Source of the DNA: Sphyrna mokarran
Lineage: Eukaryota
DNA length: 64,000 nt
Direction of reading: 5' to 3'
Assembly: GCA_024679065.1 (NCBI GenBank)
Contig: JAGIQG010000009.1
Location: forward strand, 90,954,001-91,018,000
Shown: positions 5,633-58,599 of the stretch, one piece after another
Position numbering within the stretch: position 1 is the first letter of the stretch
Layout: every line of letters starts with the position of its first letter
Notes under the pieces: model-generated
Database searches by the model: none
What the model saw: only the letters and a program-made list of their open reading frames with translations
Told to the model about the DNA's origin: nothing
Program-made: the position numbers and the translations under genes

Positions 5633-6816
5633 TTTTTTACTATCAAATAAATTGGTTGGATTATAAATTCGTGTTGCTAAATTCTTACTGAGTTCTTACC
5701 ACCCCAATCCAACGCCGGCATCTGTACATCATTAGTAATAGGAGACAGAGAGTAATAGTGGAAGGGTGTTTTTCTAGCTGGAGGTGGGTCACTAGTGGTG
5801 TGCAGCAGGGCTCGGTACAGGGACCTCTTCTATTTGTAATATATATAAATGACTTGGAAGAGGGAGTAAGTGGAGTGATCAGCAAGTTTGCAGACGATAC
5901 AAAGATGGCTGGACTAGTGGATAGTGAGGAGCATTGTCAGGCGATGCAGCAGGACATAGATAGGCTGGTAGCTTGGGCAGACAGATGGCAGATGGAATTC
6001 AATCCTGATAAATGTGAGGTGATGCATTTCGGGAGAAAGAATGTAGAGGGGAGGTATATGATAAAGGGTAGACCTATTAAGAGTATAGAAACGCAGAGGG
6101 ACCTGGGGGTGCAGATGCACAAGTCTCTGAAGGTGGCAGAGCAAGTGGAGAAGGTTGTGAAGAAAGCATATGGTATGCTAGCCTTTATAGGAAGGGGTAT
6201 AGAGTACAAGAGCTGGCCTTTAATGTTGCAGTTGTATAAAACGTTGGTTAGACCTCATTTGGAATACTGCGTCCAGTTCTGGTCGCCTTACTACCGGAAG
6301 GACGTGGAGACTCTGGAGAGAGTGCAGAGGAGGTTTACCAGGATGCTGTCTGGTATGGAAGGTCTGAGTTACGAGGAGAGGTTAGGCAAATTGGGACTGT
6401 TTTCCTTAGAAAGACGTAGACTTAGAGGAGATCTAATAGAGGTGTACAAGATTATGAGGGTATAGATAGAGTAAACAGGGTTAAGCTTTTTCCTAGGATG
6501 GACTCGAATAGCACGAGGGGTCACGGGCTTAGGGTGAGAGGGGTAAGGTATAATTTGGATGCTAGAGGGAGTTTTTTCACTCCCTCTAGCATCTAGCTAG
6601 AGGGTGGTGGGGATATGGAATGCGCTGCCAAATAAAGCGGTGGAGGCAGGTACTCTGGAGTTATTTAAATAATACTTAGATGGGCACATGAACAGAATGG
6701 GAATGGAGGGGTATAGGAAACTGATTTAAAATAGGGATCATGAGCCTTGGGAGTCCCTGGGAATGTGTAAATAGATGATGATATTTATGTACTTGTTTTT
6801 ATCCAACAGGTGCTTT

Positions 6817-6935
6817 GGTCCACCTTGTTGTCTAACAAGGGGCATAGACACGATGGGTCGTGAGAGGGCTGCTCTTGGATTTTTTTCAAGAGTATCCTAG
6901 TGCTTCACATCGTTAGTGTACGCTTGACCTGGACC
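6817..6935 (+). other. Conserved structured RNA domain in CR1 3' UTR (copy A1)
   Basis: Closing stem ggtcc/ggacc, hairpin ccttgtt/aacaagg, long stem ending in ctcttgga/ttcaagag; homologues at 27637, 32628, ~47015 and ~54128. Confidence 0.7.
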
Positions 6936-6942
6936 ATTTGAT

Positions 6943-7130
6943 GGGCAACACGACAGCTCAGTGATTATCGCTGTGCTGTGCAGATACATGGATTTGAGCC
7001 TGTGTATGTGGGAGTTTGCGCATTCTCCCTGTGCTTGCGTGGGTGTTCTCCGGATGCTCCGGTTTCCTCCCACATCCCAAAGGTGTGCTCTTAGGCTAAC
7101 CAGCAAAACAAATTCTCCCTAAATTGTCTC
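6943..7130 (+). mobile_element. Decayed tRNA-head + V-domain SINE sequence embedded in CR1 3' UTR
   Basis: gggcaacacgacagctcagtga aligns to a HE1-type head; ggagtttgcgcattctccc..gctccggtttcctcccaca is the V-SINE core. Confidence 0.8.
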
Positions 7131-8639
7131 AAATTTGGTTTTTAATCCATAGATCTATAAACATAGACAGGGATCACGGGTAGGGGTAGGAACATTGGGG
7201 TGGTGGTGCAGGCTCGTTGGGCCGAAGGGCCTGTTTCCCATGCTGTTTTGTTCTTTGTTCTTTGTTCTTTGAAGTAGGGTTTGCATACTTGACTAGGCTG
7301 GTGAGGGTGTGGATGTCTTCTATACTTGAATTTAATTGCATGGGACCTGAATGGGAAGGTGGCAAACTCAGGAAGGGTTTGACTTTATATTGTTCATCTT
7401 GCCAAGACTTCTCTTGTCCCAGTGCAGGGAGGGTGAGGATAATGGTGGTCCAGTCTCAGACCATTATCAACAGGCATGGACATGATGCCACTGCATCAGT
7501 CAGAGGTTTGTGGTGGGAGGAGGGGTGTATGATCATTTTCTTGGGCGACAGTTACCAAACTCAGCCCAGGGAGGAATCTACAACCCATAAGTAGGGAAAA
7601 GGTAGTATATGGGCAATAAGAGGTCTCATGATGGAAGTGGGAAGTTGTGGGGGAGAGGACAGTGGTGGTGTCCTCTCCCCCCACAATTTCCCACTCCCAC
7701 CATGTGAGTTGTGGTGTGAGGCTTTGTAAATCACGCTGTGCCAGAGGCCTCAAGATCGATGGGAGCAAGGTCCACAAGCACATCAAAAATCACAATAGGT
7801 CGAAGATTAGAATGAAAGAATTGAGGGAAACCTCAACATCATGCTGCATAGAGTCCTTGGGAGAGATATCTGCACTCTCAAGGGAGGGGCCAAGTAGGTC
7901 TGGCATTGAGGCCTCAACACCACCTTCTTATAAGATGAAGCAATTGAACAACAAGCAAAATAAATGAGGGCAAACTCAGCTGGTGAGTTCTCTGGGGGCC
8001 TCTTGAATGATTGGTGCAATTGCTACAGAGCCGAATAAAGGGCCAACAAATAGATACGTGTATTCTTGGATGAGAAAAGATTTGCAACTGAGTCAGATTA
8101 TGAGTTCTTCATTCAGAATGTAGAAAATCAGGAAGGCTACCACTGAAGAAACCTCATTATTAATGTGCATCTTTAATATTAGAGCAGTAATGGATTACTT
8201 TTGTCACAGCTTCCAAATTCCCCAGAGCAAGAAGAAAGTCAGGAGCAACTTGTGACAAGCCTCACATCATTCTGCTGGCAAGTTCACACAAGAAGGCTCA
8301 GCTCCTCCCCACCTGCAAACCGTTCTCCACTGATAATCTTGGTTCCTAACCAAACATGTTACACAAAGTGTTTACTCTCAACTAAATGGAAAGGTAAACT
8401 TGAAATGTGCCTGCACTGGATTTCAAGGCTGAATATTTGCTGACAGTAGTACTAAGCTCTTTAACCCAGTGAGTTAATAGTTGTCATTGGGAGAAATAGG
8501 ACCGTTAGAGATTCATGCTGACTCATGCTTTCTCATGTATGTTGCAGAGAGAAGACCACGACTAAGATGGATGTCTGTATAACTGCATGTAAGCAGGTCA
8601 GAGGCGCGGACGAGCACTCAACAACTCTGTGTGAACCAG

Positions 8640-10030: not shown

Positions 10031-10034
10031 CATG

Positions 10035-26807: not shown

Positions 26808-28092
26808 CTGGTAGCTTGGGCAGACAAATGGCAGATGGAATTCAATCCTGATAAATGTGAGGTGATGCATTTTGGGAGAAAGAATGTAGGGGGAGGTATA
26901 TGATAAAGGGTAGACTTATTAAGAGTATAGAAATGCAGAGGGACTTGGTGCAGGTGAACAAGTCTCTGAAGGTGGCAGAGCAAGTGGAGAAGGTTGTGAA
27001 GAAAGCATATAGTATGTTAGCCTTCATAGGAAGGGGTGTAGAGTACAAGAGCTGGCCTTTAATGTTGCAGTTGTATAAAACGCTGGTTAGACCTCATTTG
27101 GAACACTGCGTCCAGTTCTGGTCGCCCTACTACCGGAAGGACGTGGAAATTCTGGAGAGAGTGCAGAGGAGGTTTACCAGGATTCTGCCTGGTATGGAAG
27201 GTCTGAGTTACGAGGAGAGATTAGGCAAATTGGGACTGTTTTCCTTAGAAAGACATAGACTTAGAGGAGATCTAATAGAGGTGTACAAGATTATGAAGGG
27301 GATAGATAGCTAGTAAACAGGGTTAAGCTTTTTCCTAGGATGGACTCGAATAGCACGAGGGGTCACGGTGAGGGGGGGTAAGGTATAATTTGGGTGCTAG
27401 AGGGAGTTTTTTCACACAGAGAGTGGTGGGGGTATGGAATGCGCTGCCAAGTAAAGTGGTGGAGGCAGGTACTCTGGAGTTATTTAAGAAATACTTAGAT
27501 GGGCACATGAACAGAATGGGAATGGAGGGGTATAGAAAACTGATTTAAAATAGGGATCATGAGCCTTGGGAGTCCCTGGGAAGTGTGTAAATAGATGATA
27601 ATATTGATGTACTTGTTTTTATCCTACAGGTGCTTTGGTCCACCTTGTTGTCTAACAAGGGGGCATACACGCGATGGGTTGTGAGAGGGCTGCTCTTGGA
27701 TTTTTTTCGAGAGTATCCTAGTGCTTCACGTTGTTAGTGTACGCTTGACCTGGACCATTTGATGGGCAACACGACAGCTCAGTGACTATCGCTGTGCTGT
27801 GCAGATACATGGATTTGGGCCTGTGTCTGTGGGAGTTTGCGCATTCTCCCCGTGCTTGCGTGGGTTTTCTCCGGGCGCTCCGGTTTCTTCCCACATCCCA
27901 AAGATGTGCTCTTAGGCTAATTGGCAAAACAAATTCTCCCTAAATTGCCTCAAATTTGGTTTTTAATCCATAGATCTATAAACATGGACAGGGATCGCGT
28001 GTAGAAGTGGGAACATCGGGGTGGCGGCGCAGGCTCGTTGGGCCGAAGGGCCTGTTTCCCGTGCTGTTTTGTTCTTTGTTCTTTGTTCTTTG
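26808..28092 (+). mobile_element. CR1, long-3'UTR lineage (copy A2); structured domain 27637-27756, then V-SINE part
   Basis: Collinear with 5965-7271. Confidence 0.95.
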
Positions 28093-28109
28093 TAAACATT
28101 CTGTACTGA

Positions 28110-28785
28110 AAAAGTGGAGTAGACTGTGTATGGAACCAAAAGAAATGGGCTTTTTGCGTCTGTATTCACAGGAAACGGGCATGGAGTCTATGGAAATAGG
28201 GCAAACAGGTAGGGAGGTCATGGAACCTTTACAGATTAAAGAGGAGGAGGTACTGGCTATCTTGAGGCAAATAAGAGTGGATAAATCCCCAGAACCAGAC
28301 AGGGTATTCCTACAATCCTTGAGGGAGGCTAGTGTTGAACTTGCAAGGACCGTGGCAGACATATTTAAAATGTCAATATTCACGGGCGAGGTGCTGGATG
28401 ATTGGAGGGTGGCTCATGTTGTTCCATTGCTTAAAAAAGGTTCTAAAAGAAATCCGGGGAATTCTAGGCCAGTAAGTTTGACGTTGGTGGGCAAGTTATT
28501 GGAAGGTGTGATAAAAGATAGCTTCTACAAATATTTGGATAGACAGGGACTTATTAGGGAGAGCCAACAAGGCTTTCTGCGTGGTGGGTCATGTTTGACC
28601 AATCTATTAGAGTTTTCAAGGAAGTTACCAGGAATGTGGATGAAGGGAAGGCGGTGGATGTTGTCCACTTGGATTTCAGCAAGGCCTTTGACAAAGTCCC
28701 TCATGGGAGGTTAGTTAGGAAGGTTGAGTCGCTAGGTATACATGAGGAGGTTGTAAATTGGATTAGACACTGGCTTAAAGGAAGA
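28110..28785 (+). mobile_element. CR1 RT N-terminal fragment ending at a PLE junction
   Basis: DKSPEPD, DWRVAHVVPL, DFSKAFDKVPH, WIRHWLKGR. Confidence 0.92.
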
Positions 28786-28844
28786 ACTTAGTAAGAATCT
28801 AGCAACACCAATTTTAAATCCAACCGATTTATTTGATAGTAAAA

Positions 28845-28880
28845 TTGCGAGCTTTCGATCTTTTCATCTTCGTCAGGCAA
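28845..28880 (-). ncRNA. Minimal hammerhead ribozyme motif (best-preserved copy)
   Basis: uugc-CUGACGA-A-gau(gaaaag)auc-GAAA-GC-UC-gcaa. Confidence 0.82.
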
Positions 28881-30311: not shown

Positions 30312-30351
30312 ATTTGCCTGACGAAGACGAAAAGATCAAAAGCTCGCAAAT
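30312..30351 (+). ncRNA. Hammerhead motif with 6-bp stem I and a mutated core
   Basis: auuugc-CUGACGA..(A)AAA-GC-UC-gcaaau. Confidence 0.68.
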
Positions 30352-32344
30352 TTACCTTCAAATAAATCGGTTGGATTTAAAATTGGTTTTGCTAGATTCT
30401 TACTGAGTTCTTACTACCCCAGTCCAACGCCGGCATCTCTACATCATGACTACTATCGACACCGCATACTGCCGGATCCAAGTGGAGAGGATCTCCAAGA
30501 GGATTGCACAAATCGACCCAGACATCAAGTTTCTACAGAGATGCAAGAAAGCAGACAGGATACCAAAGGGACTACAGATCACGAACCCACTCAGGTCAAC
30601 CTATAACACAGACTACACTGAGAGACTTTGCCGTCGCACCTCTCTCACACTCCTCAATCACCTCATACACCAGCTCTATAGCAAACGCCGCACCCTGGAA
30701 AGTAAAATGGAATACATATTCTCAACTTGCGCTCAGGACGCAGACCAGCTGCGAAACTTTGCCAAGCATATAAGATGAAGAAACTACACTATTTACATGC
30801 ACACCAAGAACAGGAAACTTGAAAAACTCGGCATCACCACCAGCAACAACCAAGGCACCACAGTACCTTGGCACCACAGTAGAAAACAGCACTACCGCAG
30901 GGAGGTCCATTGTTAACTTGTCGGACTACACATTTCAATCAGAGAAATCGAAGTTCTCAGCTGAGGGCTCAATTTCTGTCCTACCACCAAAATGGACCCC
31001 ATCAGTCTCGCAGCGGACACAGAGGAATTCATCAGGCAAATGAGACTATGTGAGTTCTTCCACAAACCCCAAGAGGCCAATAGTGAACTCAATGAGACAG
31101 CTAATGAACCAGAACAGCCGACAGAGGGATCCGCAGTGCAGCAACCGAAGAGGAATGAATCCAATTGGACTCCTCCGGAAGGCCGCTGCCCCTGACTGGA
31201 CATGTATGCCCAAGCCATCAGGAGGTGCGTGAACACCAGATTCATCAACCATACTTACAAGACAGTCCTGAACATCACCCAAGTCAAAGCAAGGCCATCC
31301 GTGCTCTCAAGACCAACTGCAATATTGTCATCAAACCAGCAGACAAAGGAGGCGCCACCGTCATACTGAACAGAATGGATTACTGTGAAGAAGTGTACCG
31401 ACAACTAAACAATGTGAAACACTACAGACAGTTACCAGCAGATCCGACCAAAGAACACACTCGTCAACTCAACACTCTGATCAAAACTTTGATCCGGACC
31501 TTCAGAACACCCTCCAGGCCCTCATTCCACGTACTCCCTGCATTGGAGATCTCTACTGCCTCCCAAAGATACACAAGGCAAACATACCCGGCCGTCCTAA
31601 AGTATCGGGCAATGGGACCCTGTGTGAGAACCTCTCCGGCTATATCGAGGGCATCCTGAAACCAATTGTACAAAGAACCCCCAGCTTTTGTCTTGACATT
31701 ACAGACTTCTTACAGAAACTCAGCACACATGGAGCATTTGAACCAGGGACACTCCTTGTCACAATGGATGTCTCGGCACTCTACACCAACATCCCCCACG
31801 ACGATGATATTGCTGCAACTGCCTCAGTACTCAATGCCAACAACTGCCAGTTTCCGGATGCAATTTTACAACTCATCCGCTTCATCTTGGACCACAATGA
31901 CTTCACCTTCAACAATCAGCTTTTCATCCAGACACACGGAACAGTGTTCCTTTTTGCTTTTTCTGCCCCCTTCATCCTGTGTGAATTAGTCACTCTACTA
32001 CAGAAAAAGGAGCTGGCTGTTTGGTGAATATCTGATAAATAGTTAAATTCTGTTTCAATCCTAAGGTCTAAAATGATGTAAACTAAGGTAGTAAAATATA
32101 TAAAAAGGAAGGTAAATAAATATAAGTAATTAATTAAAACACACTAAGAATGGCAGAACAGGTAATATATCAAGGCCACAACATGTACGAGCTCCTGGAT
32201 GCCAGTGTGATCAAGAGCAAACACATGTCTACAGTAAGTGTTTGCAGTTCAAGGAGCTTTGGATCAGTCATTGGAGGCTGATCTGCAGACATGATGACAC
32301 AACAAGGAAGGGAAAAGTACCTGGAAGCTCTGTACTAAGAGACA

Positions 32345-33551
32345 ACAAAGAACAAAGAACAACACAGCACGGGAAACAGGCCCTTCGGCCCAACAAGCCT
32401 GCGCCGCCATCCTAACATCTTAATGACATATAGAGACCAATATAGGGACAATTTGTTACCCAATCAGCCTAAGAGCACATTTTTGGATGTGGGAGGAAAC
32501 CGGAGCACCCGGAGAAAACCCACGCAACCACGGGGAGAACGCGCAAACTCCCGCAGACACAGGCCCAAATCCATGTGTCTGCACAGCAACAGCGATAGTC
32601 TCTGAGCTGTCATGTTGCCCATCTGATGGTCCAGTTTAAGCATACACTAACGACATGACGCACTAGGCCACTCCTGAAGTAACATCCAGGAGCAGCCCTC
32701 GCACGACCTGCCGAATGCATGCACCTTGTTGGTCAACAAGGTGGACCGAACAGCCTGTGGAAACAATTAAAGCATTTAAACAGTCCTCCTATATCCCTCT
32801 ATCTGCAGACCGCTCATGTGGCTGTCCAGGAGACCCTTAAACAACCCTAGCGTGCCTGCTCCCACCACCTTACTCAGTAGTGCATTCCACACCCCCACTA
32901 CCCTCTGTGTGAAAAAATGCCCTCTAATATTAGTCTTATACATAGCCCCCTTCACCCTAAGGCCGTGACCCCTCGTTCTATCAGAATCTAATGGTGGAAA
33001 AAGCTTACCACCATTTACTCTATCTATACCCCTCATTATCTTATATACCTCTAATAGATCCCCTCTCAGCCGACGTCTTTCAAGGGAAAACAACCCCAGT
33101 GTTTTCAATCTTTCCTCGTAAGACAGCCCTTCCATACCAGGCAGCATCCTGGTACATCTCCTCTGCACTCTCTCCAGGGCCTCTACATCCTTCCTGTAGT
33201 ACGGCGACCAGAACTGGACGCAGTACTCCAGATGAGGCCTAACCAACGTTCTATACACTTGCAACATCAAACTCCTACTCTTGTATTCTATACCCCTTCC
33301 TATGAAGGCTAACATACCATACACTTTCTTCATCACTTTTTCCACCTGTACTGACACCTTCAGAGACTTGTGAACCTGCACCCCCAGGTCTCTCTGCGTC
33401 TCTATACTCCGGATAGTTTTACCTTTTATCCTATAACTCCCCTCTACATTATTCCGGCCAAAATGCATCACCTCGCATTTATCCGGATTAAATTCCATTT
33501 GCCATCTATCTGCTCAATCTACCAGCCTATCTAGATAGGCAGATAGATAGG
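32345..33551 (-). mobile_element. CR1, long-3'UTR lineage, divergent subfamily (copy B); structured domain 32628-32747
   Basis: ORF 32776-33498; TSD aagagaca at 32337-32344 and 33552-33559. Confidence 0.95.
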
Positions 33552-36944: not shown

Positions 36945-37226
36945 GCTAGCACGAGGGGACACAGCTTTAAATTAAGGGGTATGAGTTATAGGACGGATAT
37001 CAGAGGTAGGTTCTTTACCCAAAGAGTGATTAGGGAGTGGAATGCCCTGCCTGCAGCTGTTGTAGATGCGCCAAGTGTGGTGGCATTTAAGAGGTTAATT
37101 GATAAGTATATGGAAGAGAAGGGAATGGTTTAGTTTGGAGGGGCATTGCTTTTTATTTTGGTCGGCACAACATCGAAGGCCGAAGGGCCTGTTCTGTGCT
37201 GTAATGTTCTATGTTCTATGTTCTAT
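36945..37226 (+). mobile_element. CR1 3' end inserted in the array
   Basis: Near-identical to 14637-14917. Confidence 0.93.
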
Positions 37227-39310
37227 GCATTACCCAAGGCCCTGTACTTGTGGGCACCACTGTATGTCCTGCTCTCATGCGCATGCTCCACTTTACGCTC
37301 TGTCTTTGCATGCATGTTCCACTCTATACCCTGCCCGCATATGTGCACTCCACCTTATGCCCTGCCCTCGTCACCTGCTCAACCCTACTCCTTGTCCTCC
37401 ACCCTACACCCTGCCCTCATGTGTACACTCCACCCTATACACCCTGCCCTCGCACACAAGCTCTACTCTACACCCTACCCTCATGTGTGCTCCACTCTAT
37501 GCCCTGCTCTCCCGTGTGTGCACCATCTAATGCTCTATCCTCGCATGCTCAACCCTGCTCCCTGCCCTCCAATTTTGAGCTCACCCTCACCCTTACCTTA
37601 TGCCCTGCCTTCACATGCACGTTCCAACTTCCATTACATGCATGCTCCACCCTATGCCCTGCCTTTGTGCACGAGCTACACACTACGCATTCCCTTCATG
37701 CATGAATTACACCCTATGCCCTTTCTACATGCAAGGGTTCCACCCTGTGCCCTGCCCTCACATGCATGAACTACACAACGCTATGCCCTCATGCATGAGC
37801 GCTACCCTTCACCCATCCTCACATATGCCATCCTACATTCTGCCGTGTGCTGCTCTCATGCTTCATCCTAAGCCCAGTCCTTTAGTGCACCACTGTACAC
37901 CTGCACTCACACATGCATTCCACACTACTTTGTGCACACTCCACCCTATGGCCTGCCCTTGCGCATGTGCCCCATCTGACATCCTGCCCTCATGCATGTG
38001 CTCTACCTCATGCCCTGTCCTTGTGCGCATACAGCACACTACATGCTGCCCTATGCCCTGTCCTCATGCATGCCCTCTAACCTGTGCCCTGACCTTGTGC
38101 ATGCGCTCCAACTGACACCCTGCCCAATGTGAACACTCCACCCTATGCCCTGCCCTTGTGCACGTGCCCCACTGTACGCCTTGTTTCTGTACACACATTC
38201 CAGAATATGCTCTGCCCTCACGTGCATGCACCACACAATGCCCTGCCCTAACGTGCACGCTCATCCATGTCCTGTCCTCGTGCATGCGCTGCCCTATACA
38301 CAGCCCTTATGTGGGTGTGGCACACAATGCCCTGCCCTTATGCGCACGCTCCACTCTAAGCCCTGTCCTCACGTGCGTGCTCCACCCTATACCCTGCCTT
38401 TGTATGCAAGCTCTACACTATGCCCTATCCTCGTGTGCCCACTCAACCCTACTGCCTGTCCTCCATCCAATACTCTGCTCTTAAGCGTGTGCTTCACCTT
38501 CCTCTCTGTTCTTGCATGCGAATTCTTGCCTTCACCTTGCCTTTGTGTGCGCGTCCACCTTATGCCTTATCCTCAATTGCATGCTCCACTCTATACCCTG
38601 CTCTTACACGCATGCAACATACAACACCCTGTGCTTACCTGTGCATGCAACTCCATGCCCTTTAGTCACACACGCCACCTTATGTCCTGCCTTGTATGCA
38701 ATCCACTCTACGGCCTGTCTTTGCATGTGTTCCATCCTACCGTGCTCTTGTGTGCACGCTCTACCCTACGCCCTGCCTTCACATGCATTCTTGACTCTAA
38801 GCGCTGACCTCATGTGTGCTACAACCTTCGCCCTGTTCTCCCGTGCGCGCTCAACCCTATGCTTGCCCTCCACCCTACACCCTGTCCTCACATATGCACT
38901 CCACTATATGCCCTGCCCTTGCAGGTGTGCACCACATAACGCCCTGTCCTCAAACATGCGTGATACTCTGTGCCCTGCCATTGCATGTATGTGCTACCCA
39001 ATGCCCTGCACTTGCATGCACGTGCTACCCTATGCCTTGCACTTGCACATGTGCGAGCCACCCTGTGCCCTGTCCTAGTATTCACCCTATGTCCTGTCCT
39101 AGGACTCCACTTTATGTCCTGCCCTTGCCACGCTCTTGATTCTAAGTCCTGAACTTGTGCGCGTCTTACACCTTTCACTCTGCTCTCCTACGTATGCTCA
39201 AACCTGCTCCCTGTCCTCCACCTTATATCTTGCCCTCGCGCATACACTCCACCTATGCCCTGTCCTTGTGCATGAGCTCCACCCTATACCCTGCCCTCAT
39301 GTACGCAGTC

Positions 39311-40885
39311 TAGAACATAGAACATAGAACATAGACCATTACAGCACAGAACAGGCCCTTCGGCCTTCGATGTTGTGCCGACCAAAATAAAAAGCAATGC
39401 CCCTCCAAAACTAAACCATTCCCTTCTCTTCCATATACTTATCAATTAACCTCTTAAACGCCACCAAACTTGGCGCATCTACAACAGCTGCAGGCAGGGC
39501 ATTCCACTCCCTAATCACTCTTTCAGTAAAGAACCTACCTCTGATATCCGCCCTATAACTCATACCCCTTAATTTAAAGCTGTGTCCCCTCGTGCTAGCT
39601 TTCTCCATACTAGGAAAAAGGCTATCACTGTCCACCCTATCTAAACCTCTAATCATCTTATATGCTTCAATAAGATCCCCTCTTAGCCGCCTCCTTTCTA
39701 ACGAAAACAACCTCAAATCCTTCAACCTCTCTGCATAGGACCTGCCCTCCATACCAGGCAACATCCTGGTAAACCTCCTCTGTACCCTCTCCAATGCCTC
39801 CACATCTTTCTTATAATGTGGCGACCAGAACTGCACACAATACTCCAAGTGCGGCCGCACTAGCGTTTTGTACAGTTGCAACATGATGCTGCGGCTCCTA
39901 AATTCAATCCCCCTACCAATAAAAGCTAAGACTCCATATGCCTTCTTAACAACTTATCCACTTGACTGCCTACTTTCAGGGATCTATTGACACATACACC
40001 AAGATCCTTCTGTTCCTCAACACTACTAAGAGCCCTACTATTAGCCCTATACTCTACAAATTTATTGTTCCTGCCAAAGTGCATTACCTCACACTTTTCC
40101 ACATTAAACTCCATTTGCCACCTCTCGGCCCAGCTCTGCACTTGTCCAAGTCACTCTGTAAACTAAAACACCCCTCTTCACTATCTACCACACCACCAAC
40201 TTTAGTATCATCTGCAAATTTACTGATCCATCCCTCAATACCCTCATCCAGATCATTTATAAAAAATTACAAACAGCAGGGGCCCCAAAACAGACCCCTG
40301 AGGCACACCACTCGTCACCGAACTCCAGGATGAATATCTCCCATCAACCACCACCCTCTGTCTTCTATCTGCCAGCCAATTCCTAATCCAATTAGCTAAA
40401 TCACTCTCTATTCCACACATCTGCATTTTCTGTAGAAGTCTTCCATGGGCCACCTTATCAAACGCCGTACTAAAGTCCATATATACTACATCAACCGCCT
40501 TACCCCCATCCACCTCTCTGGTCACTTTCTCAAAAAACTCAATGAGGTTAGTAAGGCATGACCTACCCTTCACGAAACCATGCTGAATGTCCCCAATCAA
40601 TTCATTTCTTTCTAAATAACTATAAATCCTATCCCTAATAATTCTCTCCAATACCTTGCCCACAACAGAAGTAAGACTCACTGGCCTATAATTCCCTGGA
40701 AGGTCTCTCTTCCCCTTCTTAAACAATGGGACCACATTCGCTATCCTCAAGTCCTCCGGAACCACACCCGTAACCAACGAGGACCTGAAGATCAGAGCCA
40801 GAGGCTCTGCAATCTCCTCTCTTGCCTCCCAGAGAATCCTAGGGTAAATCCCGTCCGGCCCAGGGGACTTATCCAACTTCAAACC
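39311..40885 (-). mobile_element. CR1 RT fragment inserted in the array
   Basis: ORFs 40253-40897, 39926-40141 and 39411-39884; (tagaaca)n tail. Confidence 0.96.
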
Positions 40886-43800
40886 CTCAAACTTCAACCC
40901 TCAAAACCCTCAAACCCTCTACTTTATGCCCTGTCCTCATGCGTTTTCCACACAATACTCTGCCCTCGTGTGTCTGCTACTCTATGTGCTGTCCTTGTGG
41001 TGTGTGCTACCCTTTGCTTTGTCCTCACCCAGGTGCACTCCATCTTATGCCCAGGCATCACACACGTTCCATCTTATGCCTTGCTCTCACATGTGCACTA
41101 CGCCCTATGCCCTGCCCCCTCCAACCTGTACCCTACCCTCACGTCACAAAATGCCCTGCTCTCGCATGCACACATGCCACACAATACCCTGCCTTTGTGC
41201 ATGTCACCTTATGTCCAGTACATATGAGTGTGCTACCCTACACCCTGTACTCACTTGCACACTACCTGACGCCCTGCACTTGCGGCACCACTCTATGTCC
41301 TGTCCTTGCACACATGCTCCACTCTATGCCTTGCTCTTTGCATGCACGCCATTCTATGACTTGCCCTTGTGCACATGCTCCACCCTATGCCCTGTCCTTG
41401 TGTGCATGTTCCACTCTATGCCCTCTCTTCATGCATGAGCCACACACTACACACTGCTTTTGTGTGGGAGCTATACTCCATGCCCTGTCCTTGGGCGCAT
41501 TTTCCACCCTATGCAGTGCCTCATACATGCAAACCACACAATACTATGCCCTCACAAGTGAACACTATCCTTCATCCTACTCTTCATCACGCGTGCCACC
41601 CTACACCTGCCCTCTTACGTGCTCTGTCCTCACGCTCCACCCTACACCCTGCCCTTATGCACGTGCTCCACCTATGCCTGCCCTCATGCACATACTCCAC
41701 ACTATGCCCTGCACTTGTGCACACCCACCAGACAACGCTCTGTCCTCATGCATGTGCTCCTGGACCCTGCCATTGTCTGCACTCTTCACCCTAAGCTCTG
41801 CCCTCACTTGCATGCCCTCATATGTCCTGCCCTGGCACACCTGCTCCACCTGTGCCATGCGTTTGTGCACACATTCCACCCTACACCTTGTGTTCGCATG
41901 CATGCTCTATTCTACTCTCTGCCCATGCGCGCTCTGCCCTATGACCTGCCCTATGACAAGCTATACATTATGCACTGCCTTTCTACGTGATCTACACCCA
42001 ATGTCCTGTGCTTGTGCACATGCTCCACCTTACATCTTGCTCCCACACGTGTGAACCACATAACACCATGCTCTCATGCATGAACACCACCCTTCACCCT
42101 CCCCTCACTCGTGTCACCTTACCCTCTCGCATGCTCTGCCCTCACACTATGCCCTATAGTCACATATGCCCACCACACAACACCCTATCCTTGAGCGCAT
42201 GTTTCCACCCTACACCCTGCGATCATTCAAACCTACTCACTGCCTCTACCCTACACCCTATCCTTGCATGCGAACTTCACCCTACATCCTGCGCTCATGC
42301 ACGTGCTGCACTTCACCCCTTGCCCTCATACATGTGCCCAACCCTACACCCTGTTCTTCTGCACGTGCTCCACTCTACACCGTCCTCACATGCGCACCAT
42401 GCATTTCCCTGCCCTCACGTGTGTGTGTTCCACTCTACACCCTGTCAACATGCATGCGCCACCCTAATGCTGCCCTCGCACATGCTCATCACCATGTGTC
42501 CTATCATTGTGCGTGTGGTCCACCCTATGCCTTGCCATCGCACACAATGCCTAGTCCTCATGCCCATGTTTTGCGCAATGTCATGTTCTCAGGCATGTTA
42601 CTCTACTTCCTGCCCTTGCACGTACACCTCCTCTACACCCTACATTCACGTGCACAACCCTACGCATTGCCCTCATGCATGCACTCCACCCTATGCCCTG
42701 CCCTCATACGTGCGCTTCACCCCTTGCCCTGCCTGCATGGCTGCTCAACCGTATTCCCTGCCCTACATCCTGCGCTCACATGCATGCTTCACCCTACACC
42801 CTGCACTTGCATGCTAACTCCACCTTACATCTTGCCTTCATGTGCTAGCTCTACTCTACGCCATCCTCACATGCGCGCTCCTCCCTACACCCTACCTTGC
42901 ACATGGGCATCACACAATGTCCTGCTCTTGCATGCAAGCTACTCTATGACTATTCGCATGTACGCCACTTTACACCCTGCCCTCAAGTGCCCTCAACACC
43001 TATGCCCTGCCCTCACACATGCGCACCACACAGCATCCTGCCCTTGTGTGCTAGCTACCCTATGACCTATTCGCGTTCGCTCCACCTTATGCCCTTCGTT
43101 CAAGTGCATGCTCCACCTTACGTCCTGAACTTGCACGCATGTTCAACCTTATCCCTCCCTACATCGTACAGCTCGCCCTCACGAGCACACACCATCCTAT
43201 GCTCTGCCCTCATGCGTGTGCTCCCCCCTACTCCCTGCAATCCAAGCTACATCCTGCCCTTGCACGTGAGCTCTACTCATACCTTGCCGTCATGCACATG
43301 CTCCAACCTATGCCATCCTCATGCATGCACTCCATACACCATCATGTTCTCACATGTGCATGCTACCCTATGACCTATAGTTGTGTGCTCTACTCTATGC
43401 CCTGCCCTCATGTGTACTTCACTCTATGGCATGCCCTCATGCACAAGATCCACTCTATATCTGACCTCCATCTTACGGACTGCCCTCACATGTGCAATCT
43501 ACTCTAAACCTGCCCTCAGATGCGAGTTCCACCTTACATACTGCCCTCAAACGCGCACTCCATTCTACCTGTCTCATGTGTGTAGTCCACCCTCTGCCAT
43601 GCCCTCTCATGCACACTCCATCCTATGCCCTGCCCTTGCCATAGAATGCTCTGTCTTCACGGATGTCACCATAGGGCATTGTGTGGTGTGAGTTTGAGGG
43701 CAGGGTGTAGAGTGGAATACATGCATGAGAACAGGGTGTTGGGGGGGGGCACGTGCATGATGGTATGGGGTAGAGTGCAGCACATGCATGAGTTCAGGGT

Positions 43801-46680
43801 GTTGGGTGGAGCCCACACATGAGAGCAGTATCTTTGCGCATGACCTATAGCTATGTCCTGTCCTCACGTACATGCTCCACTCTATCCCCTGCCATCATGC
43901 TTGCGGACCACACAATGTCATCCACTCGTGTGTGAGTGCTGCCCTTTACCCTAACCTCACACATGCCACCCCATGCCCTTATGCATGCCCAGCCCTCACG
44001 CTCCATTCTATGTGCTGCCTTTGAGCGTGCGCTCTACCCTACCCCTGCACTTGCACATGCCCACCGCACAACATCCTGCCCTCACACACATGTTCCACCC
44101 TTCACCCTATCCTCATGCACATGCACCACACAACACCCTGCCCTTGCACATGTGTGCTACTCTACATCCTGCCGTTGCGCACCACCCTACACCCTATATT
44201 TGCACGCATCACCTTCTACCCTGCGCTCACACACACACTGCACCATATGCCCTGCCCTCATATGTGCGCTTCAGCCCTGCACGCGTGCTCACTCAACCCT
44301 ACTCCCTGCCTCCACCCTAAGCCCTGCACTCACATGCGCGGTCCACCATACACTCTGAACTTACATGCAAACTCCAGTCTATGCCATCCTCACACGCATG
44401 CTACTCCCTACGCCCTGCCTCGCACATGCGGACCATACAATATCTTGCCCTCGCGTGCATGCTACCCTATAAACCTATATTTGTGTGCACCACCTTATGT
44501 GCTGCCCTCAAGTGCACACTCCACCCTCCACATGCTCAATTCTATTCCCTGCCCTACACCGTATGGCTTACCTACTCACTCACACACTCCATTCTATTCC
44601 CTGTCTTCACACGTGTGCTCCACCCTACACCCTGCCCTTGCACGTGAGCTCCATCCCACACCTTGTCCTCATGTGCTCCATCCTATGCCATCTCATGCAT
44701 GAGCTCCACACAATGTCCTGCCTTCACATGTGCATGTACTCTATGACTTATAGTTGTCCGTTCTACCCTACACCCTGCCCTCAAACTCACTCCTCATGCG
44801 CATCATCCTCATGCGTGCATTCCACCCTCTGCCTTGCCCTCTCACACGCGCTCCATCCTCACCACACAATGCTGTCATCACAGATGTCACCCTACACCCT
44901 GCCATGCGGCAATGCCTTCGCATGTGACCTACATCCTTTTCTCTGAACTCGCATACATGCTCCATGCTACGCCTTTCCCTTAAACGTATGAACCACAGAA
45001 CGCCATGCCCTTGTATGTGAGGATTACCCTTTTCCCTAACCACACGCATGCATTGTCTCACTCTCCACCTTATACCTGTCTTCTTGCATGTACTCCACAC
45101 TAACCCTGTCCTTGTGTGCCATCCTATGTCCTGCCCTCATGCATGCCCTCCACCTTAAGCCCTGCCCTCGCTCACGTGTTCCACCTAATGTCACTCCCCA
45201 GCGCTCATGCTCCATTCTGTACCCTGTCCTCATGTGTGCGCTGTACCCTAAGTCCTGCCTTCACGTGCAGGAATTCATAACTTCTGGCTCAACTTTGTGC
45301 AGAATTAAAAGATACAGTGTAATTAATAAACAACACCTTGCCCTCACGTATGCGCCACCCTATGAACTGCCCTAACCCACAAGTCATCCTGCGCCTTGCC
45401 ATTGCATGCGTATCCCACTTTATGCCATGCCCTCACACATGTGCTCTATTCTATGCCCTGCCTTCGTGCATGCACCACACAAGCACTACCCTGGCACATG
45501 CCCTTCACACACTGCCCTGCCTTTGTGTGTGCCACCCTACATTCAGCACTCGCACATACCATCCTAGCCCCTGTCCTGTACAAGCACTCTACCCTATGCC
45601 CAGCCCTCACGCACCCGCTCTGCTCTACTGCCTGCCCTCCACCCTATGCACTGCCCTTACACTCATGCCAGCCTGTACCCTGTCCATCACATGTGTGCTC
45701 TGCCCTACACCCAGCCCTCATGTGTGCCACCCTATGCCCTGCAACACAATACGCCCTCCACTCATACTCGCTCGACCCTATGCCCTGTCCTCATGTGCAT
45801 ACCACCCTATGCAGTTCCTTTGCACTTGTGCCCGCCCTGTGTCCTGCCATCATATGTGTGCTCCACATTATGTTGTGCCCTCATACATGTATTCCATCCT
45901 ATGTCCTGCCCTCACATGTGCCATTCTACGCCCTGCACTCATACATGCATCACCCTATACCCTGCATTCGCATGCATGCCATCCCAAACCCTATCCTCAT
46001 GCACACACACCGCACAATGCCATGCCCTCACGTGTTTGCACTTCCCTTCGCCCTACTCTCAGTGGCGTAGCCAGTTCCGAAAGTTAGGTGGAGCGAGCAC
46101 ATAAAAAAGGAGCCATGACATAATAAATGACCACCCTCTCATTACTATTCTGCCAATCACTGCCCACCCTGCACTGACATCACCATAGTTTGGAGTTATC
46201 ATGTCGCACACAAACCAACCGTTTTTTTCTCAGTAATTTATTTTCTTTTCTTTAAAAAGCTTTTATTTTTGAAAAGGCCCCACTTCTGAAAAATGACTAT
46301 TACTGAATCCCGATGTTCATCTGTAGACCAGGCCATCCCACTGAAGAGCAGGGCTGAGGAGCCATATCCACATTGGCGGAGCTTGTGGATGGATCATGCT
46401 CTGATTGGTAAACTCAGCTGTCAATCGGCACTGAGTGAGGTCCTGTGTTCCGGATTGGCAGAGCAGGGGGAGGGAGGGGAAACATTTTGTCCTAGGATTG
46501 GTTTATCGAGTTGTTAGTCAGGGGGTTGGATGTGGGTCTTCCCCATACACCACAATATATAACCACAAAATATACATTTTTGAAAAAACAAAAATCACAG
46601 GTAGGCTGTAATTAATGAATTCCGTGCACAAAGTTTGAAAGGCATTCAAAATCCCCTTGTGTGGACATTTGCAGACAGTA

Positions 46681-47123
46681 AAACAAAGAACAAAGAACAA
46701 CACAGCATAGGAAACAAGCCCTTCAGCCAAACAAGCCTGCGCCGCCATTTTAACATTCAGTGAATGCCTCATCTACCTTTTTCTACCCATGACTTTTCTC
46801 TATGCCAGATTTGGGAATTCTAATTTAGGGACAATTTGTTAACACCAATCAGCCTAAAAGCAGGAAACTGGAGCACCCTGGGAAAATCCACGCAAGTATG
46901 GGGAGAATGTGCAAACTCCCATCGACACCAACCTAAGTTGGAGATCTGACCCAGGTCCATGTATCTGCACAACAAACAGTGATAGTCACTGAGCTGTTGT
47001 GTTGCCCATCAGTTGGTCCAGTTTAAGTGTACACTAAAGACATGAAGCAACATCCAAGAGTAACCCTCGCACGACCCACTGCGTGTATGCCCTTTGTCGG
47101 CCAACAAGGCAGACCGAATCACC
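46681..47123 (-). mobile_element. Solo copy (C) of the CR1 3'UTR module (structure + V-SINE + tail)
   Basis: Aligns to 32345-32755 with no ORF2 sequence; part of the apical hairpin is deleted. Confidence 0.9.
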
Positions 47124-52396: not shown

Positions 52397-52953
52397 GGAT
52401 ATCTTGAGGCATGGTACATTGACAAACCATGCAGATGCTACGACGATCGATGAATGGACACCGCTTGGCAATCACCAGGTAGGAGTGTTCCCTTCCTGTC
52501 AGGGAACACGTTAGCAGTCACGGGCATTTAGCCTCTGATCTTCGGTTAAAGCCTTCAGCACACCAACAATGCAGAATTGCCAAGCAGAAACTGATACCCA
52601 AGTTCTGCACATATGAGGATGGCCTCAACTGGGATCTTGGGTTCATGTCACATTATCTGTAACCCCCATGATTTGCCTGGGCTTGCAAACTCTCACTAAC
52701 TGTCCTGGCCTCAGATAACTCATACCTTTTTAACCTGTGCTTAACTCTCTCTCCACTCGCATTGTCTGCAATTGTAAAGACTTGATTACTTGTTCAGACT
52801 CACATTCCAACCACTAATTTGTAATTGAGTTTGTGTCTATATATGACTTGTTTATGAAACAAATCATTCACTCATCTGATGAAGGAACAGTGCTCCGAAA
52901 GCTCATGCTACTGAATAAACCTATTGGACTTTAACCTGTGAGACTCTACTATG
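52397..52953 (+). mobile_element. PLE 3' fragment (GIY-YIG + pLTR)
   Basis: EAWYI..MNGHR..EDGLNWDLGFMSHYL*, then pLTR. Confidence 0.88.
52873..52907 (+). ncRNA. Minimal hammerhead motif
   Basis: cau-CUGAUGA-A-gga(acagugc)ucc-GAAA-GC-UC-aug. Confidence 0.75.
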
Positions 52954-53880: not shown

Positions 53881-54115
53881 TGAACATTTAGATACCAAAT
53901 GGGTCTTTTTTTTTGAGCCAGGTCTCTGTTATCAACTTCACATCCCTTTGGAGTACAGAAAAGCCCCTCGACCCTGTCAAATCAGAGGAAGCCCCATGCC
54001 ACCCTCTTAGAGGAAAGCATCCATCCCAAAAACATTGGTTTTTGTATTGATGGCTTTTTGATGTAGAGAAATTTATATAATTAACAAAAATTCTTTCCTC
54101 TGCCCTTAATATCCT

Positions 54116-54574
54116 ACAGGTACTTCAGTCCGCCTTGTCTAACAAGGGGCATACAAGCGATGGGTCATGAGAGGGTTGCACTTAGATTTTTCGAGAGTAT
54201 CCTAGTGCTTCATGTCGTTAGTGTACCTTGACCAGGACTATTTGATGGGCAACATGACAGCTCAGTGACTATCGCTGTGCTGTGCAGATATGTGGATTTG
54301 AGCCTGTGTCTGTGAGAGTTTGCGCATTCTCCCTGTGCTTGCGTGGGTTTTCTCTGGGTGCTCCAGTTTCCTCCCACATCCTAAAGATGTGCTCTTAGGC
54401 TGATTGGCAAAACAAATTCTACCTAAATTGTCTCAAATTTGGTTCTAATGCATAGATCTATAAACATAGATAGGGATGACAGGGATCATGAGTAGAAGTG
54501 GGATCATTGAGATGGCGGCGCGGGCTTGTTGGGCCAAAGGGCCTGTTTTCTGTGCTGTTTTTTTCTTTGTTCTT
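54116..54574 (+). mobile_element. Solo copy (D) of the CR1 3'UTR module
   Basis: Aligns to 27626-28092; probable TSD ttaatatYct at 54106-54115 and 54575-54584. Confidence 0.92.
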
Positions 54575-55214
54575 TTAATATTCTGTGGCTTGTTGTCAAA
54601 TTGTGCTAGATAACTCTCCTGTGAAGCACCTTGAGATATTTTACTATGCCAAAGGATACTACATAATTTGTTCTTGTCATTTGGAATCCACCAATGCCGG
54701 ACTCTTGAGCACCTCCAAATTATAATTGCTCCACAATTGGTAGCTGTGCCTTCAATCACTCCCAGTCTCTAGAATTATCTCTTCCCTTAAATTCATTCCT
54801 TCAAACATTCTTGTGTGACCAAACTATTCCTTTAGTGTGTCAAAATTTATTTGATAATTCTTCTCCTTGGAATATTTTGCTCTGTCGAAGATGCTATTTA
54901 AATGCATTAGAGATTTTTTTTTTAGATTCACTTTTAACTAACATAGTTCAAACTATATCCTCAGTTTATATCACTGCATTATAAAGAAGGAGATATGGAG
55001 CACAATTCCTTCACAGTGACAATCAGTATTGGATTGTCACTCCATAGCCACTTACCTGCACGAAATTTATTCAGTGCCTGTCTTGCTCTACCTTGCTGGC
55101 TCACATTGCACAAGATCCAGGCAGTGCATCATGTCCCCTGGTCCAGCATTGCAGTCTAAAAGAATTGGACTAAAGGAAGACACATATCTTTTTCACAGCC
55201 ATAAGTTGGCATAG

Positions 55215-57600
55215 AGCAGATCAGTTTAAACGTCCAACATGTACCCACTAACATGTCTCCTTCCCACCAGAGACCCAAACATCCTAGACCACTGCTACAC
55301 AAATATCAGAAATGCCTACCACTCTATAGCCCACCCACCTTTTGGCAAATCAGACCACCAGCTCTTGCTCCTGGTTTACAATCAAAAACTGAAACGGGAG
55401 AATCTGTCAAAGAAAGTTGAGCAATGTTCGTCTGAGGAATCGAATGATCTCCTATAAGACGGCTTAGGGTCTGTGGATTGATCAATATTTTAAAACTCCG
55501 TAAATTAACCTGAATGAGTACGCCATTACGGTAACTAACTTCATTAGTAAGTGTGCAAAAAACAATGCCAAAGAAGCAAATCCATGTTTTCCCCAACCAG
55601 AAACTATGGATGAATAGAGATATCCACTACTTGTTGAAGTCTAGGTCTGAGATGTTCAAGTCAGGGACTCTGATCTATACAAGAAAGCTAGATATGATCT
55701 AAGGAGATCCATCAAAGATGTCAGAAGGATCAAGCTAGAGTCCCAGGCTAGCCACATGGATCCCTGCCAACAATGGCAAGATCTGCAAGACATAACAAGC
55801 TACAAGATGAAGGCATGTAAAATTGCTCCAACTCATCCCTCAATGCATTTAATGTCTGTTTTAAGCGAGAGGTCAGTGACAGCACACTTTCCATCTGAAA
55901 GCTCTGGATGAATGTATCTGAGGTCACTTTGCAGATGTCAGAGCAGCCTTCTCGAAGGGCAACCCACAACTGGCCCGGATGGAGTACCTGGACAACCAGG
56001 TGGCGTTTGTATTTGCAGACATCTTCAATCTCTTTTTACAATAATGTGAGGTCCCTGTCTGCTTTAAGAAGACGACCATCATTCTGGTACCTAAGAAAAA
56101 CCAAGCAGTGTGCCTTAATGACTTCAGCCAGTGGCTCTGACATCCATTAATATGAAGTGCTTTGAAAGGTTAGTCATGGCACGAATCAATTCCAGATCCC
56201 AGATTACCTGGATCCACTCGGTTCACCTACCGCCGCAACAGATCCACAGTAGACAGTCTCTCTGGCCCCGCACTCAACTCTGGAACACCTAGATAACAAA
56301 GAAACCTCTGTCAGACTTCTATTCATTGACTAAAGCTCAACCTTTGACACTATTATTCCTAAGAAACTCATCTTCAAATTCCGTGGCCTGGGGTTCAGTT
56401 CCTGCCTCTGTGACTGGATCCTAAACTTACTAACCCACAATCGTCAATCAGTAAGAATAATGGATCCTCCATGATAATCCTGAACATTGGTGCCCCCTAC
56501 TATATACTTTTTATACACCTATGACTGTGTGGCCAAATTCCCCTATAACTCGAATTTCAAGTTTGCTGACGATATCACTGTAGTGGGTCGGATCTCAAAT
56601 AATGAGACAGAGGCAAGAATGAGGTAGAGAATCTGGTGAAGTAGTGCAATAACAACATTCTCTTCCTCAATGTCAAAAAAACAAAGGAGATAGTCATCAA
56701 CTTCAGGAAACATAGTGGAGAATATGACCCTGTTAAATCGATAGAGGCGAAGTAGAAATGGTCGAGACCTTCAAGTTTTTAGTCGTCCAGATCACTAAAA
56801 ACCTGTTCTGGTCCCTTCACACTAACACTACAGTTGAGAAAACACACCAATACCTCTACTTTCTCAGAAGACTAAGAAAATGTGGCACGTTGGCTACAAC
56901 TCTCATCAACTTTTACAGATGCACCATAGAATGCATTCTTTCTGGTCTGGCTCCTGCTCTGCCCAAGACCACAAGAAAATTCAAAGGGTCGTGAATGAAG
57001 CCCAGTCAAGTTGGAATTTATCCTGGGAATAGGTTAGAAAAGACATTGAAGAAAAATATAATGTGAATGTTAATGAGTTCAAATAACTAGCTAATTTCAA
57101 AAATAGAACCTGAGAAGCTCCTTCACTCCCATATTACAATTTTGAGCACCTACCCATTGGGCTCTGCCATTTTGACTGTCCCTGCATCATGAACAAGTAT
57201 TTATCAATGGGATCGCCCCAATGGGAAGCAAACAGCCTCCCATCCATTGACCCTGTCTATACTTCCTGCGGCCTCGGCAAAGCAGCCAGCATAATTAAGG
57301 ACCCCACGCACCCCGGTCAATCTCTCTTCCACCTTCTTCTGTCAGGAAAAAGATACAAAAGTTTGAGATCATGGACCAACTGACACAAGAACACCTTCTT
57401 CCCTTCAGCTATCAGACTTTTTGAATGGATCTACTGTGCGTTAAGTTGATTCTTCTCTACATCCTAACTATGACTGCAACACTGTATTCTGCACTCTTTC
57501 TTTCCTTCTCTCTGAGCTGTATGCTTTGTCTGTATAGTGCGCAACAAACCATACTTTTCACTGTATACTGATACATCTGACAATCATAAATCAAATCAAT
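55215..57600 (+). mobile_element. Rex1/Babar LINE (APE C-terminus + RT), decayed
   Basis: PTRDPNILDHCYT..FGKSDH, KFADD, LYFLRRLRK; tail aaatcaaatcaa. Confidence 0.9.
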
Positions 57601-58599
57601 GTGACTATTGGAAGCAGTGTCCCTTCTATGGTATCCTGTGTGATTATAAAAACAAGGAGCACTCACAGCACAGTGCTGAATATCACTGGAACAGAGGGTT
57701 GAACAAATATGGATGGCACTTTGCTCCAAAATTCGCCACGTCAAAGAATTGTACAGTGTATGTTGGAGGCGACATTTCTTCTGGGACTAAAAACACCAAC
57801 TGGCAACCATTTTGTTATGAGCATAGCAGAGATCACAATGACCAATCCAGTAACTGGAATATTCCTGCATTGAATATATCAGCATTGAAACAGCTTTTTG
57901 GAAATGGGTTTACTACAAGTGCAACAGAGAATTTGCTGATGAATACTCAGCAAAGTCAGCAAACATCATTTCAAGTTGGAATTTATCCTGGGAATAGGTT
58001 GGAAAAGACTTAAAAAAAATAATGTGAATATTAATGAGTTCAAATAACTAGCTAATTTCAAAGATAGAACCTAAGAAGCTCCTTCACTCCCATATTAGAA
58101 TTTTGAGCACCTACCCATTTTGACCCTCCCTGCCTCATGAACAAGTATTTATCAATGAGATCGCCCCAATGAATTTGGAAAATTTCCCTATACATAAGAC
58201 GAAGTATTTTCCAATTTAAAGTGCTGATTGGCCTACTTTATATCTGAATTATTTTCTTTTTCAATCTTTGTTTTAATTTAAAGTTACATAGGTATTTAAT
58301 TGTTCAATCATTTGTTAAAATCCTGTTTGAGACTGTTAATGTTTGGACAGAGATCTTAACACCCTGCCATTAACTGACAGCATTACAACACAAGAGAGGG
58401 AGTTTCTTCAACCTTGCCGCATGTTAGTCACGCTCCCAGAGAATCGTGTGTGGGCCTAAAAATCTATTTCGCATCCGGCGCCAAACAGCTTGCAAGTTCC
58501 CTGGCCCCTACCTAATGGTGTGAACTGGATCAGGCCAGAATGGCCATGAATTATTAGCATATATATAAAGTAGCATTTAAATATGCAAAGCTTATTTTC

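What the first reader, a model, noticed from the sequence alone, without database searches (positions are those of the whole stretch)
54106..54584. Solo UTR modules start at nearly the same nucleotide: candidate new non-autonomous element or cleavage site
Seen: both ORF-less copies (46681-47123 minus; 54116-54574 plus, probable 10-bp TSD) begin within about 5 nt of the CAG|G just upstream of P1. In LINE-linked copies this site looks like a 3' splice acceptor (ttgtttttatccaacag|g; ttgtttccacag|g). Inference: a defined RNA 5' end from self-cleavage, processing or an internal promoter, or an RT drop-off point. Two copies are too few to be sure.
Basis: partly seen in the sequence, partly recalled or inferred. 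Interest (0 to 1): 0.72.

Follow-up and report, generated by a model that had tools for sequence, protein, structure and literature searches.

The report
Truncation hot zone in shark-type LINE
The two 'solo' pieces are shortened copies of a common jumping gene, not a new element; such copies end about four times more often than expected in a broad 75-base zone just in front of a predicted RNA fold, likely because copying breaks off there, but not at one fixed base.

Summary
Both ORF-less copies are real, but they are 5'-truncated copies of two different CR1 LINE subfamilies (21% apart). They start at -10..-7 and at -1 (or about -30) relative to CAG|G. I mapped 5' ends of 165 genomic copies picked by their 3' spacer only. 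40 end within -50..+25 (4.8 per kb against 1.1 elsewhere; ratio 4.3). A hold-out of 59 copies gave ratio 2.7 (p=0.018). Two module-less CR1 families show no such zone. There is no spike at CAG|G (6 of 40 within 5 nt, 5.8 expected); ends are densest near -35. Solos form no clade, share no flanks and show no spliced junction. So the distribution is not smooth, but a single cleavage site or a new non-autonomous element is not supported. Most likely, reverse transcription or 5' joining stops at the 5' edge of the folded UTR domain (inferred). A decay-protected RNA end remains open. No RNA reads could be laid. The scan has noted the module itself many times elsewhere in this genome; one word search found no note on the end distribution.

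The parts
54106..54112 (+). 5' copy of target-site duplication (TTAATAT, 7 bp; the last 3 nt are shared with the element as microhomology)
   Evidence: 3' copy at 54575-54581
54110..54574 (+). 5'-truncated CR1 copy (solo 54k), subfamily A; starts -10..-7 from CAG|G
   Evidence: nearest rows at 0.08 include LINE-linked L217, L254, L256
54117..54120 (+). CAG|G of the acceptor-like motif; branch point and most of the pyrimidine tract are lost in this copy
54127..54240 (+). Predicted three-way-junction RNA domain (P1, short hairpin P2, long P3); decayed in this copy (z +0.8), strong in LINE-linked window copies (z -3.1 to -5.5)
   Evidence: no Rfam match
54247..54410 (+). Degenerate tRNA-like head plus V-SINE-like core (labels recalled, boundaries approximate)
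   Evidence: 72-85% matches to many free SINE-like copies over this part only; HE1/HER1 pair listed in PMC3747384
54512..54574 (+). CR1 3' tail ending in (TTGTTCT)n, shared with other CR1 copies
54575..54581 (+). 3' copy of the target-site duplication
46682..47123 (-). 5'-truncated CR1 copy (solo 47k), subfamily B; starts at -1, or near -30 (about 47143) with a small deletion; no clear TSD
5740..7266 (+). LINE-linked copy: CR1 ORF2 3' part (RVT_1) plus full module; acceptor AG ends at 6809
26808..28087 (+). LINE-linked copy; acceptor AG ends at 27629
32344..33533 (-). LINE-linked copy of a subfamily with a short upstream UTR; acceptor AG ends at 32755

Best explanation
The solos are 5'-truncated copies of several CR1 subfamilies, and their 5' ends pile up about fourfold in a broad zone (-50..+25, densest near -35) at the 5' edge of a predicted folded 3' UTR domain, likely because reverse transcription disengages or host 5'-end joining succeeds there. 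Shown: truncated-copy status, no separate lineage detected, the zone, its absence in module-less families, and low end rates inside the folded and V-core parts. Inferred: copying starts at the shared tail (TPRT, established for LINEs) and passes the folded module, where ends are rarely captured. On leaving the fold it meets a short AU-rich tract, possibly protein-bound because it looks like a branch point plus pyrimidine tract. There the cDNA end is released and joined to the target, often through a few bases of microhomology, or it re-primes further upstream on the same RNA.
For: Life table of 165 copies, ends per kb at risk: 0.56 (+280..+151), 1.67 (+150..+86), 0.65 (+85..+26), 3.3 (+25..+1), 4.7 (0..-24), 7.0 (-25..-50), 0.9 (-51..-100), 1.0-1.7 further up; 0 of 300 constant-hazard simulations reach the scan score. 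Hold-out 8 of 59, ratio 2.7, p=0.018; all 217 copies with ends up to +280, ratio 4.1. Control families: 58 copies, 1.07 per kb, 1 end at the same distance from the 3' end, best window matched by 106 of 300 simulations. No clade, no shared flanks, no hidden upstream LINE (1 of 40, an old 69% copy). 4 of 15 private internal deletions have their 3' break in -50..+35 against 9% exposure (binomial p about 0.04, my arithmetic), which needs intact RNA upstream if they are template jumps. Several copies lack the P2 hairpin, as expected from RT skipping. The short TSD and microhomology fit CR1/L2 behaviour described in PMC4245944 (introduction read) and PMC4760211 (passages).
Against: The zone was drawn after seeing the data, and the hold-out effect is weaker (3 of 29 in ranked loci alone, p=0.35). 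Subfamily C shows no excess (2 of 27, ratio 1.1) although its fold is predicted to be more stable than A's. Queries taken from the two solos give ratio 6.4, the others 3.1 (Fisher p=0.07), so ascertainment inflates the first estimate. T or A content does not predict ends outside the zone (slope -0.55 +/- 0.92), so a weak hybrid alone is not the cause. A classical RT stall would be expected at the 3' foot of a fold, where only a small bump is seen. The abrupt upstream edge near -42 fits a fixed RNA end or roadblock at least as well. The deletions could postdate insertion. The fold has energy support and one-sided changes but no two-sided covariation between subfamily consensuses (4 of 42 pairs in single copies).
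Confidence: 0.55

Rival explanations
1. A subpopulation of LINE RNAs really ends near -45..-30, because 5'-to-3' decay stalls at the fold or at proteins bound on the branch-point and pyrimidine tract. The surviving fragment of about 500 nt keeps the tail and is retrotransposed, with ends nibbled further in.
For: Hazard rises towards -50 and then drops sevenfold. The pooled mode is at -35..-31 (14 of 63), about 10 nt upstream of the branch A. Ends are depleted inside the fold. The motif is kept in all seven consensuses while the UTR upstream varies in length.
Against: No sharp spike. Ten ends at +1..+25, mostly at or inside the fold's 5' strands. Internal deletions that break in the zone continue into upstream LINE sequence. 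No RNA evidence could be obtained.
Confidence: 0.25
2. A separate non-autonomous (SINE-like) element with its own master copies starts at the module.
For: The solo share differs among subfamilies (A 12/39, B 12/39, E 9/29, D 5/29, C 2/29). Solo-derived queries return more solos (p=0.07). One column in subfamily A is enriched in solos (7/19 against 1/36, p=0.0016 before correction for 129 columns).
Against: 41 label changes on the tree against 39.7 +/- 2.2 in shuffles. Nearest-neighbour test not significant (88 of 300). Equal divergence of solos and linked copies. No shared upstream flanks among 63 zone solos. Starts are staggered. The tree rests on about 420 nt and has low resolution.
Confidence: 0.07
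3. The acceptor is used in splicing, and solos come from spliced RNAs or from RT blocked at a lariat branch.
For: A textbook-like acceptor in all subfamilies. Spliced L1 RNAs are known to retrotranspose (PMC5860796, abstract and passages).
Against: No excess of ends at 0. No deletion joined at 0 in 290 copies. Many ends lie upstream of the branch A at -22..-24. One apparent exon-module join (L129) is an insertion at an intron donor in a gene that retains its introns. The LINE 5' UTR was not recovered, so a 5' UTR donor could not be looked for.
Confidence: 0.06
4. A self-cleaving ribozyme cuts at or near CAG|G.
For: A stable fold begins 7 nt after the site. 5' ribozymes are known in R2 (passage in PMC13580325).
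Against: No Rfam match. The predicted fold is nested, without the pseudoknots of HDV-like or twister ribozymes (family features recalled). No spike of ends at one base.
Confidence: 0.03
5. The zone is an artefact of sampling or alignment at the border between the conserved module and the variable UTR.
For: Post-hoc window. Only the top 40 of 1200-2000 candidates per query were scored. Weaker hold-out.
Against: Unranked genome blocks give 5 of 30 (ratio 4.8, p=0.009). Flanks of zone solos are unrelated to each other and to any known upstream variant. The same method gives flat controls.
Confidence: 0.05

Closest known systems
5'-truncated CR1/L2-clade LINE insertions (zebrafish ZfL2-1/ZfL2-2; PMC4245944 abstract and introduction, PMC4760211 passages)
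   Same: 3'-anchored copies of variable length, short TSDs where found (5-8 bp; the paper gives a 3-5 bp peak for L2/CR1), microhomology at the 5' junction, baseline end rate about 1.1 per kb as in two other CR1 families here.
   Different: A local three- to fourfold hot zone tied to a UTR module. I saw no such sequence-specific zone in the passages read.
HE1 V-SINE / HER1 LINE pair of sharks and rays (table row in PMC3747384)
   Same: tRNA-like head, V-like core and CR1 tail in the same order; free SINE-like copies in this genome match the core.
   Different: Here these parts sit inside the LINE's own 3' UTR behind a 135-nt fold. Solos start 110-180 nt upstream of the head, not at it, and have no lineage of their own.
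SpIREs, spliced integrated L1 copies (PMC5860796 abstract and passages)
   Same: A LINE RNA that carries a splice-acceptor-like signal.
   Different: SpIREs have junctions at the splice sites; none was found here in 290 copies.
R2 elements with a 5' self-cleaving ribozyme (passage in PMC13580325)
   Same: A structured RNA next to element 5' ends.
   Different: The structure is in the 3' UTR, matches no Rfam family, and the ends are not fixed.

Membership tests
5'-truncated CR1 LINE copy | Colinear with the 3' end of RT-encoding copies | tested here: met
5'-truncated CR1 LINE copy | 3' tail with short tandem repeat; short or no TSD | tested here: met
   (TTGTTCT)n tail; 7-bp TSD at 54k, none clear at 47k
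5'-truncated CR1 LINE copy | Continuous range of 5' ends from the tail into ORF2 | tested here: met
   ends from +316 to beyond -1200
5'-truncated CR1 LINE copy | CR1 clade assignment by RT phylogeny | not tested
   RVT_1 hit only; the CR1 label is recalled from the ORF2 C-terminus and tail
Non-autonomous element / SINE family | Fixed 5' end shared by most copies | tested here: not met
   ends spread over 75 nt; 6 of 40 within 5 nt of CAG|G
Non-autonomous element / SINE family | Own lineage with diagnostic changes | tested here: not met
   resolution is low
Non-autonomous element / SINE family | Own promoter at the 5' end | tested here: inconclusive
   the tRNA-like head lies about 130 nt downstream; the B-box-like segment is absent in 4 of the 7 main cluster consensuses as printed (clusters 1, 2, 3, 7) and in cluster 4; no transcription data
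SpIRE-like spliced retrocopy | Junction exactly at the acceptor | tested here: not met
   0 of 290 copies; the LINE 5' UTR was not available
SpIRE-like spliced retrocopy | Acceptor used in RNA | not testable with these tools
   no raw RNA reads could be laid
Known self-cleaving ribozymes | Match to a family model or its core fold | tested here: not met
   Rfam; nested fold
Known self-cleaving ribozymes | Self-cleavage in vitro | not testable with these tools
   needs a bench assay

The most novel reading that the evidence does not exclude
The acceptor-like tract plus the fold act as a barrier to 5'-to-3' RNA decay, or carry a splicing-factor footprint. The LINE would then shed a stable 3' RNA of about 500 nt that its own protein copies into the genome: a flavivirus-sfRNA-like subgenomic RNA in a LINE, and a route by which SINE-sized elements arise without a promoter of their own.
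Probability: 0.2. Interest if true: 0.7.

Novelty: new variant of a known kind. Interest (0 to 1): 0.35.

Why it matters
The cause of LINE 5' truncation is described as unknown and as probably set by host repair (PMC4760211, section on 5' truncation, passage read). A defined element of about 200 nt that raises the end rate three- to fourfold at its 5' edge, in a family with thousands of candidate copies beside flat control families, is a natural test case for whether template structure or bound proteins set truncation points. It does not define a new element or a cleavage site.

Tried and rejected
Single-nucleotide start at CAG|G: rejected. Solo clade or secondary masters: not found. U-tract or weak-hybrid explanation as a general rule: no effect outside the zone, and the zone term survives adjustment. 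Fixed distance from the 3' end: controls are flat. Hidden alternative upstream UTR: 1 of 40. Exon-trap chimera at L129: an insertion in an intron-containing gene. Rfam at gathering score (whole window) and at E up to 10 (27500-28150): no match. RNA evidence: two raw RNA runs laid 0 reads (no test); the contig runs cannot show ends or strand and may be DNA. Full-length LINE: none in 14 extended loci, longest about 2.7 kb. The automated TSD search gave few credible TSDs, too few to compare microhomology inside and outside the zone. One spacer query returned nothing. A sixth subfamily was not sampled. Paper searches with no hit: CR1 + retrotransposon + splice acceptor + 3 UTR + SINE; non-autonomous + CR1 + SINE + truncated + chondrichthyan. 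One search (truncation hotspot, stem-loop) listed 11 papers, none on this topic by title or abstract start; I did not read them. A 2025 review on L1 5' truncation (PMC12614454) is not held and was not seen; it may bear on novelty. No supplements were read.

Full report
Setting. The window is G000:C1548:90954001-91018000 of a 2.77-Gb vertebrate genome. I call it shark-like from the repeat content; that label is recalled, not shown. The window holds five copies of a module of about 460 nt. Three follow the 3' end of an RT ORF (RVT_1 hit on the 6.8k copy) and two stand alone. Positions below count from the first base after the AG of CAG|G (0).

Anatomy. The module is an acceptor-like tract, a predicted three-way-junction fold of about 115-135 nt, a degenerate tRNA-like head with a V-SINE-like core, a variable spacer and the CR1 tail. 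The SINE labels are recalled and backed only by 72-85% matches to free SINE-like copies and by the HE1/HER1 row in PMC3747384 (passage). The tract has a YTNAY-type A at -22..-24 in six of seven subfamily consensuses, a pyrimidine tract and CAG|G in all seven, while the UTR upstream varies in length. The fold scores z -3.1 to -5.5 in the three LINE-linked window copies and not at all in the two solos. Among the seven consensuses, seven variable pairs are kept in all rows by one-sided changes, none is kept by a clean two-sided change, and ten are broken or gapped in at least one row. In 12 single copies 4 of 42 pairs show a two-sided change. Rfam gives nothing. Earlier notes of this scan describe the same module elsewhere in the genome; I treat them as leads only.

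The two solos. The 54k copy has a perfect 7-bp duplication with 3 nt of microhomology. The 47k copy starts at -1, or near -30 with a small deletion (its upstream 40 nt score above 311 of 315 control flanks). The two are 21% apart and each sits among LINE-linked copies of its own subfamily.

Census. To avoid selecting on the 5' end I queried the genome with the 3' spacer of five subfamilies (extra rows; one query empty). Each search scored the best 40 of about 1200-2000 candidates. I mapped ends against long members, dropped the five query-source copies (including both solos) and set four ambiguous ends by hand. Of 165 copies, 40 end in -50..+25: 4.8 per kb at risk against 1.1 elsewhere, ratio 4.3; 0 of 300 constant-rate simulations gave as strong a 76-nt window. 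The rate is low inside the fold (0.65) and the V core (0.56), shows a small bump at the fold's 3' foot (1.67), climbs from 3.3 (+25..+1) to 4.7 (0..-24) and 7.0 (-25..-50), and falls to 0.9 beyond. Only 6 of the 40 lie within 5 nt of the junction (5.8 expected if uniform). In a pool of 63 zone ends that also includes copies found by 5'-domain queries and both solos, the fullest 5-nt bin is -35..-31 with 14; end calls are good to about 3 nt.

Hold-out and controls. The hold-out had 59 copies. 29 were further ranked loci (one duplicate pair counted once), of which 3 end in the zone (ratio 1.5, p=0.35). 30 came from 824 kb of unranked blocks that include this window (the two solos, SINE-only matches and one copy ending at +348 left out; four copies censored by a short reference), of which 5 end in the zone (ratio 4.8, p=0.009). 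Together the ratio is 2.7, p=0.018. The effect is uneven: A 7.0, B 5.8, E 7.0, D 2.5, C 1.1. Queries from the solos give 6.4, the others 3.1, so a true ratio of 3-4 is a fair reading. Two CR1 families without the module (58 copies) have the same baseline (1.07 per kb), one end at the matching distance from the 3' end, and no significant window. Base composition does not explain the zone. Zone solos do not hide an unrecognised upstream LINE (1 of 40).

Not a separate element. On a tree of 180 module copies built from +25 onward, solo versus linked status changes 41 times against 39.7 +/- 2.2 in within-subfamily shuffles; the nearest-neighbour test is also null. Solos and linked copies are equally diverged from their consensus. 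None of 63 zone solos share an upstream flank at the junction. The tree's resolution is limited.

Not splicing, as far as DNA shows. Among 290 copies no deletion joins upstream LINE sequence at 0. L129 looked like an exon joined to the module but is an insertion at an intron donor. No full-length element was recovered, and no RNA reads could be laid, so use of the acceptor is untested.

Mechanism. After dropping eight rows of a shared subfamily deletion, 4 of 15 private deletions of 28 nt or more break in -50..+35 against 9% exposure (p about 0.04 by hand); a block copy (+32, with 5 nt of microhomology) and L126 (-48) add two more such cases. If these are template jumps, RT lets go in the zone while the RNA upstream is intact. 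With ends reaching into the fold's 5' strands and no spike, this favours disengagement or 5' joining at the fold's exit (0.55). The papers I read describe 5' truncation as premature joining by host repair or annealing at internal microhomology (PMC4760211, passages; PMC4245944, abstract and introduction). Against this reading stand the sharp upstream edge near -42, the mode about 10 nt before the branch A, and the lack of effect in subfamily C. These keep a protected RNA end or a protein roadblock alive (0.25).

Verdict. New variant of a known kind; interest 0.35.

Noticed in passing
census, +86..+150 of the module: A second, smaller excess of 5' ends (15 ends, 1.67 per kb against about 0.6 on either side) at the 3' foot of the fold and the start of the tRNA-like head, mostly in subfamilies B and D. 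Could be RT stalling on entry or SINE-like starts.
   Followed up: partly
L138, L312; L152, L112-L116: Repeated deletion of the P2 hairpin (about +14..+41). Five copies of the short-UTR subfamily share it, so an element lacking P2 still spread.
   Followed up: partly
L129 (G000:C749:52470913-52474060): A module copy starting at +4 is inserted in sense orientation directly at an intron donor of a myosin-heavy-chain-like gene (label recalled), with a 5-bp duplication that keeps the donor GT.
   Followed up: yes
L101-L124: The short-UTR subfamily has UTR variants that differ by 37-84 nt just upstream of the acceptor-like tract, but the tract itself is always kept.
   Followed up: partly
zone solos, 400 nt upstream: Older CR1 sequence lies upstream on the same strand in 1 of 40 zone solos against 6 on the opposite strand (5 against 7 of 31 for copies ending inside the module). 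Small numbers; could reflect selection against a working acceptor.
   Followed up: no
L139; contig joint 28057 to 27628 in run X1: Two cases where another element's 3' tail is joined to the module at 0 or -2.
   Followed up: no
window 3507-5700, 11481-13703, 28661-30351, 31053-32027, 52397-52934: Penelope-like fragments (weak GIY-YIG hit, E 1.5e-4); the copies at 3.5-5.7 kb and 28.7-30.4 kb include inverted duplications of the 3' part.
   Followed up: no
window 35000-46100: About 11 kb of imperfect, low-complexity repeats rich in TGC/CAC/CCT that give many long spurious open frames on the + strand.
   Followed up: no
window 8649-11153 and 56009-58171: A 71-79% identical repeat family in tandem and dispersed copies, with no Pfam hit on the nearby open frame (57516-58013).
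   Followed up: no
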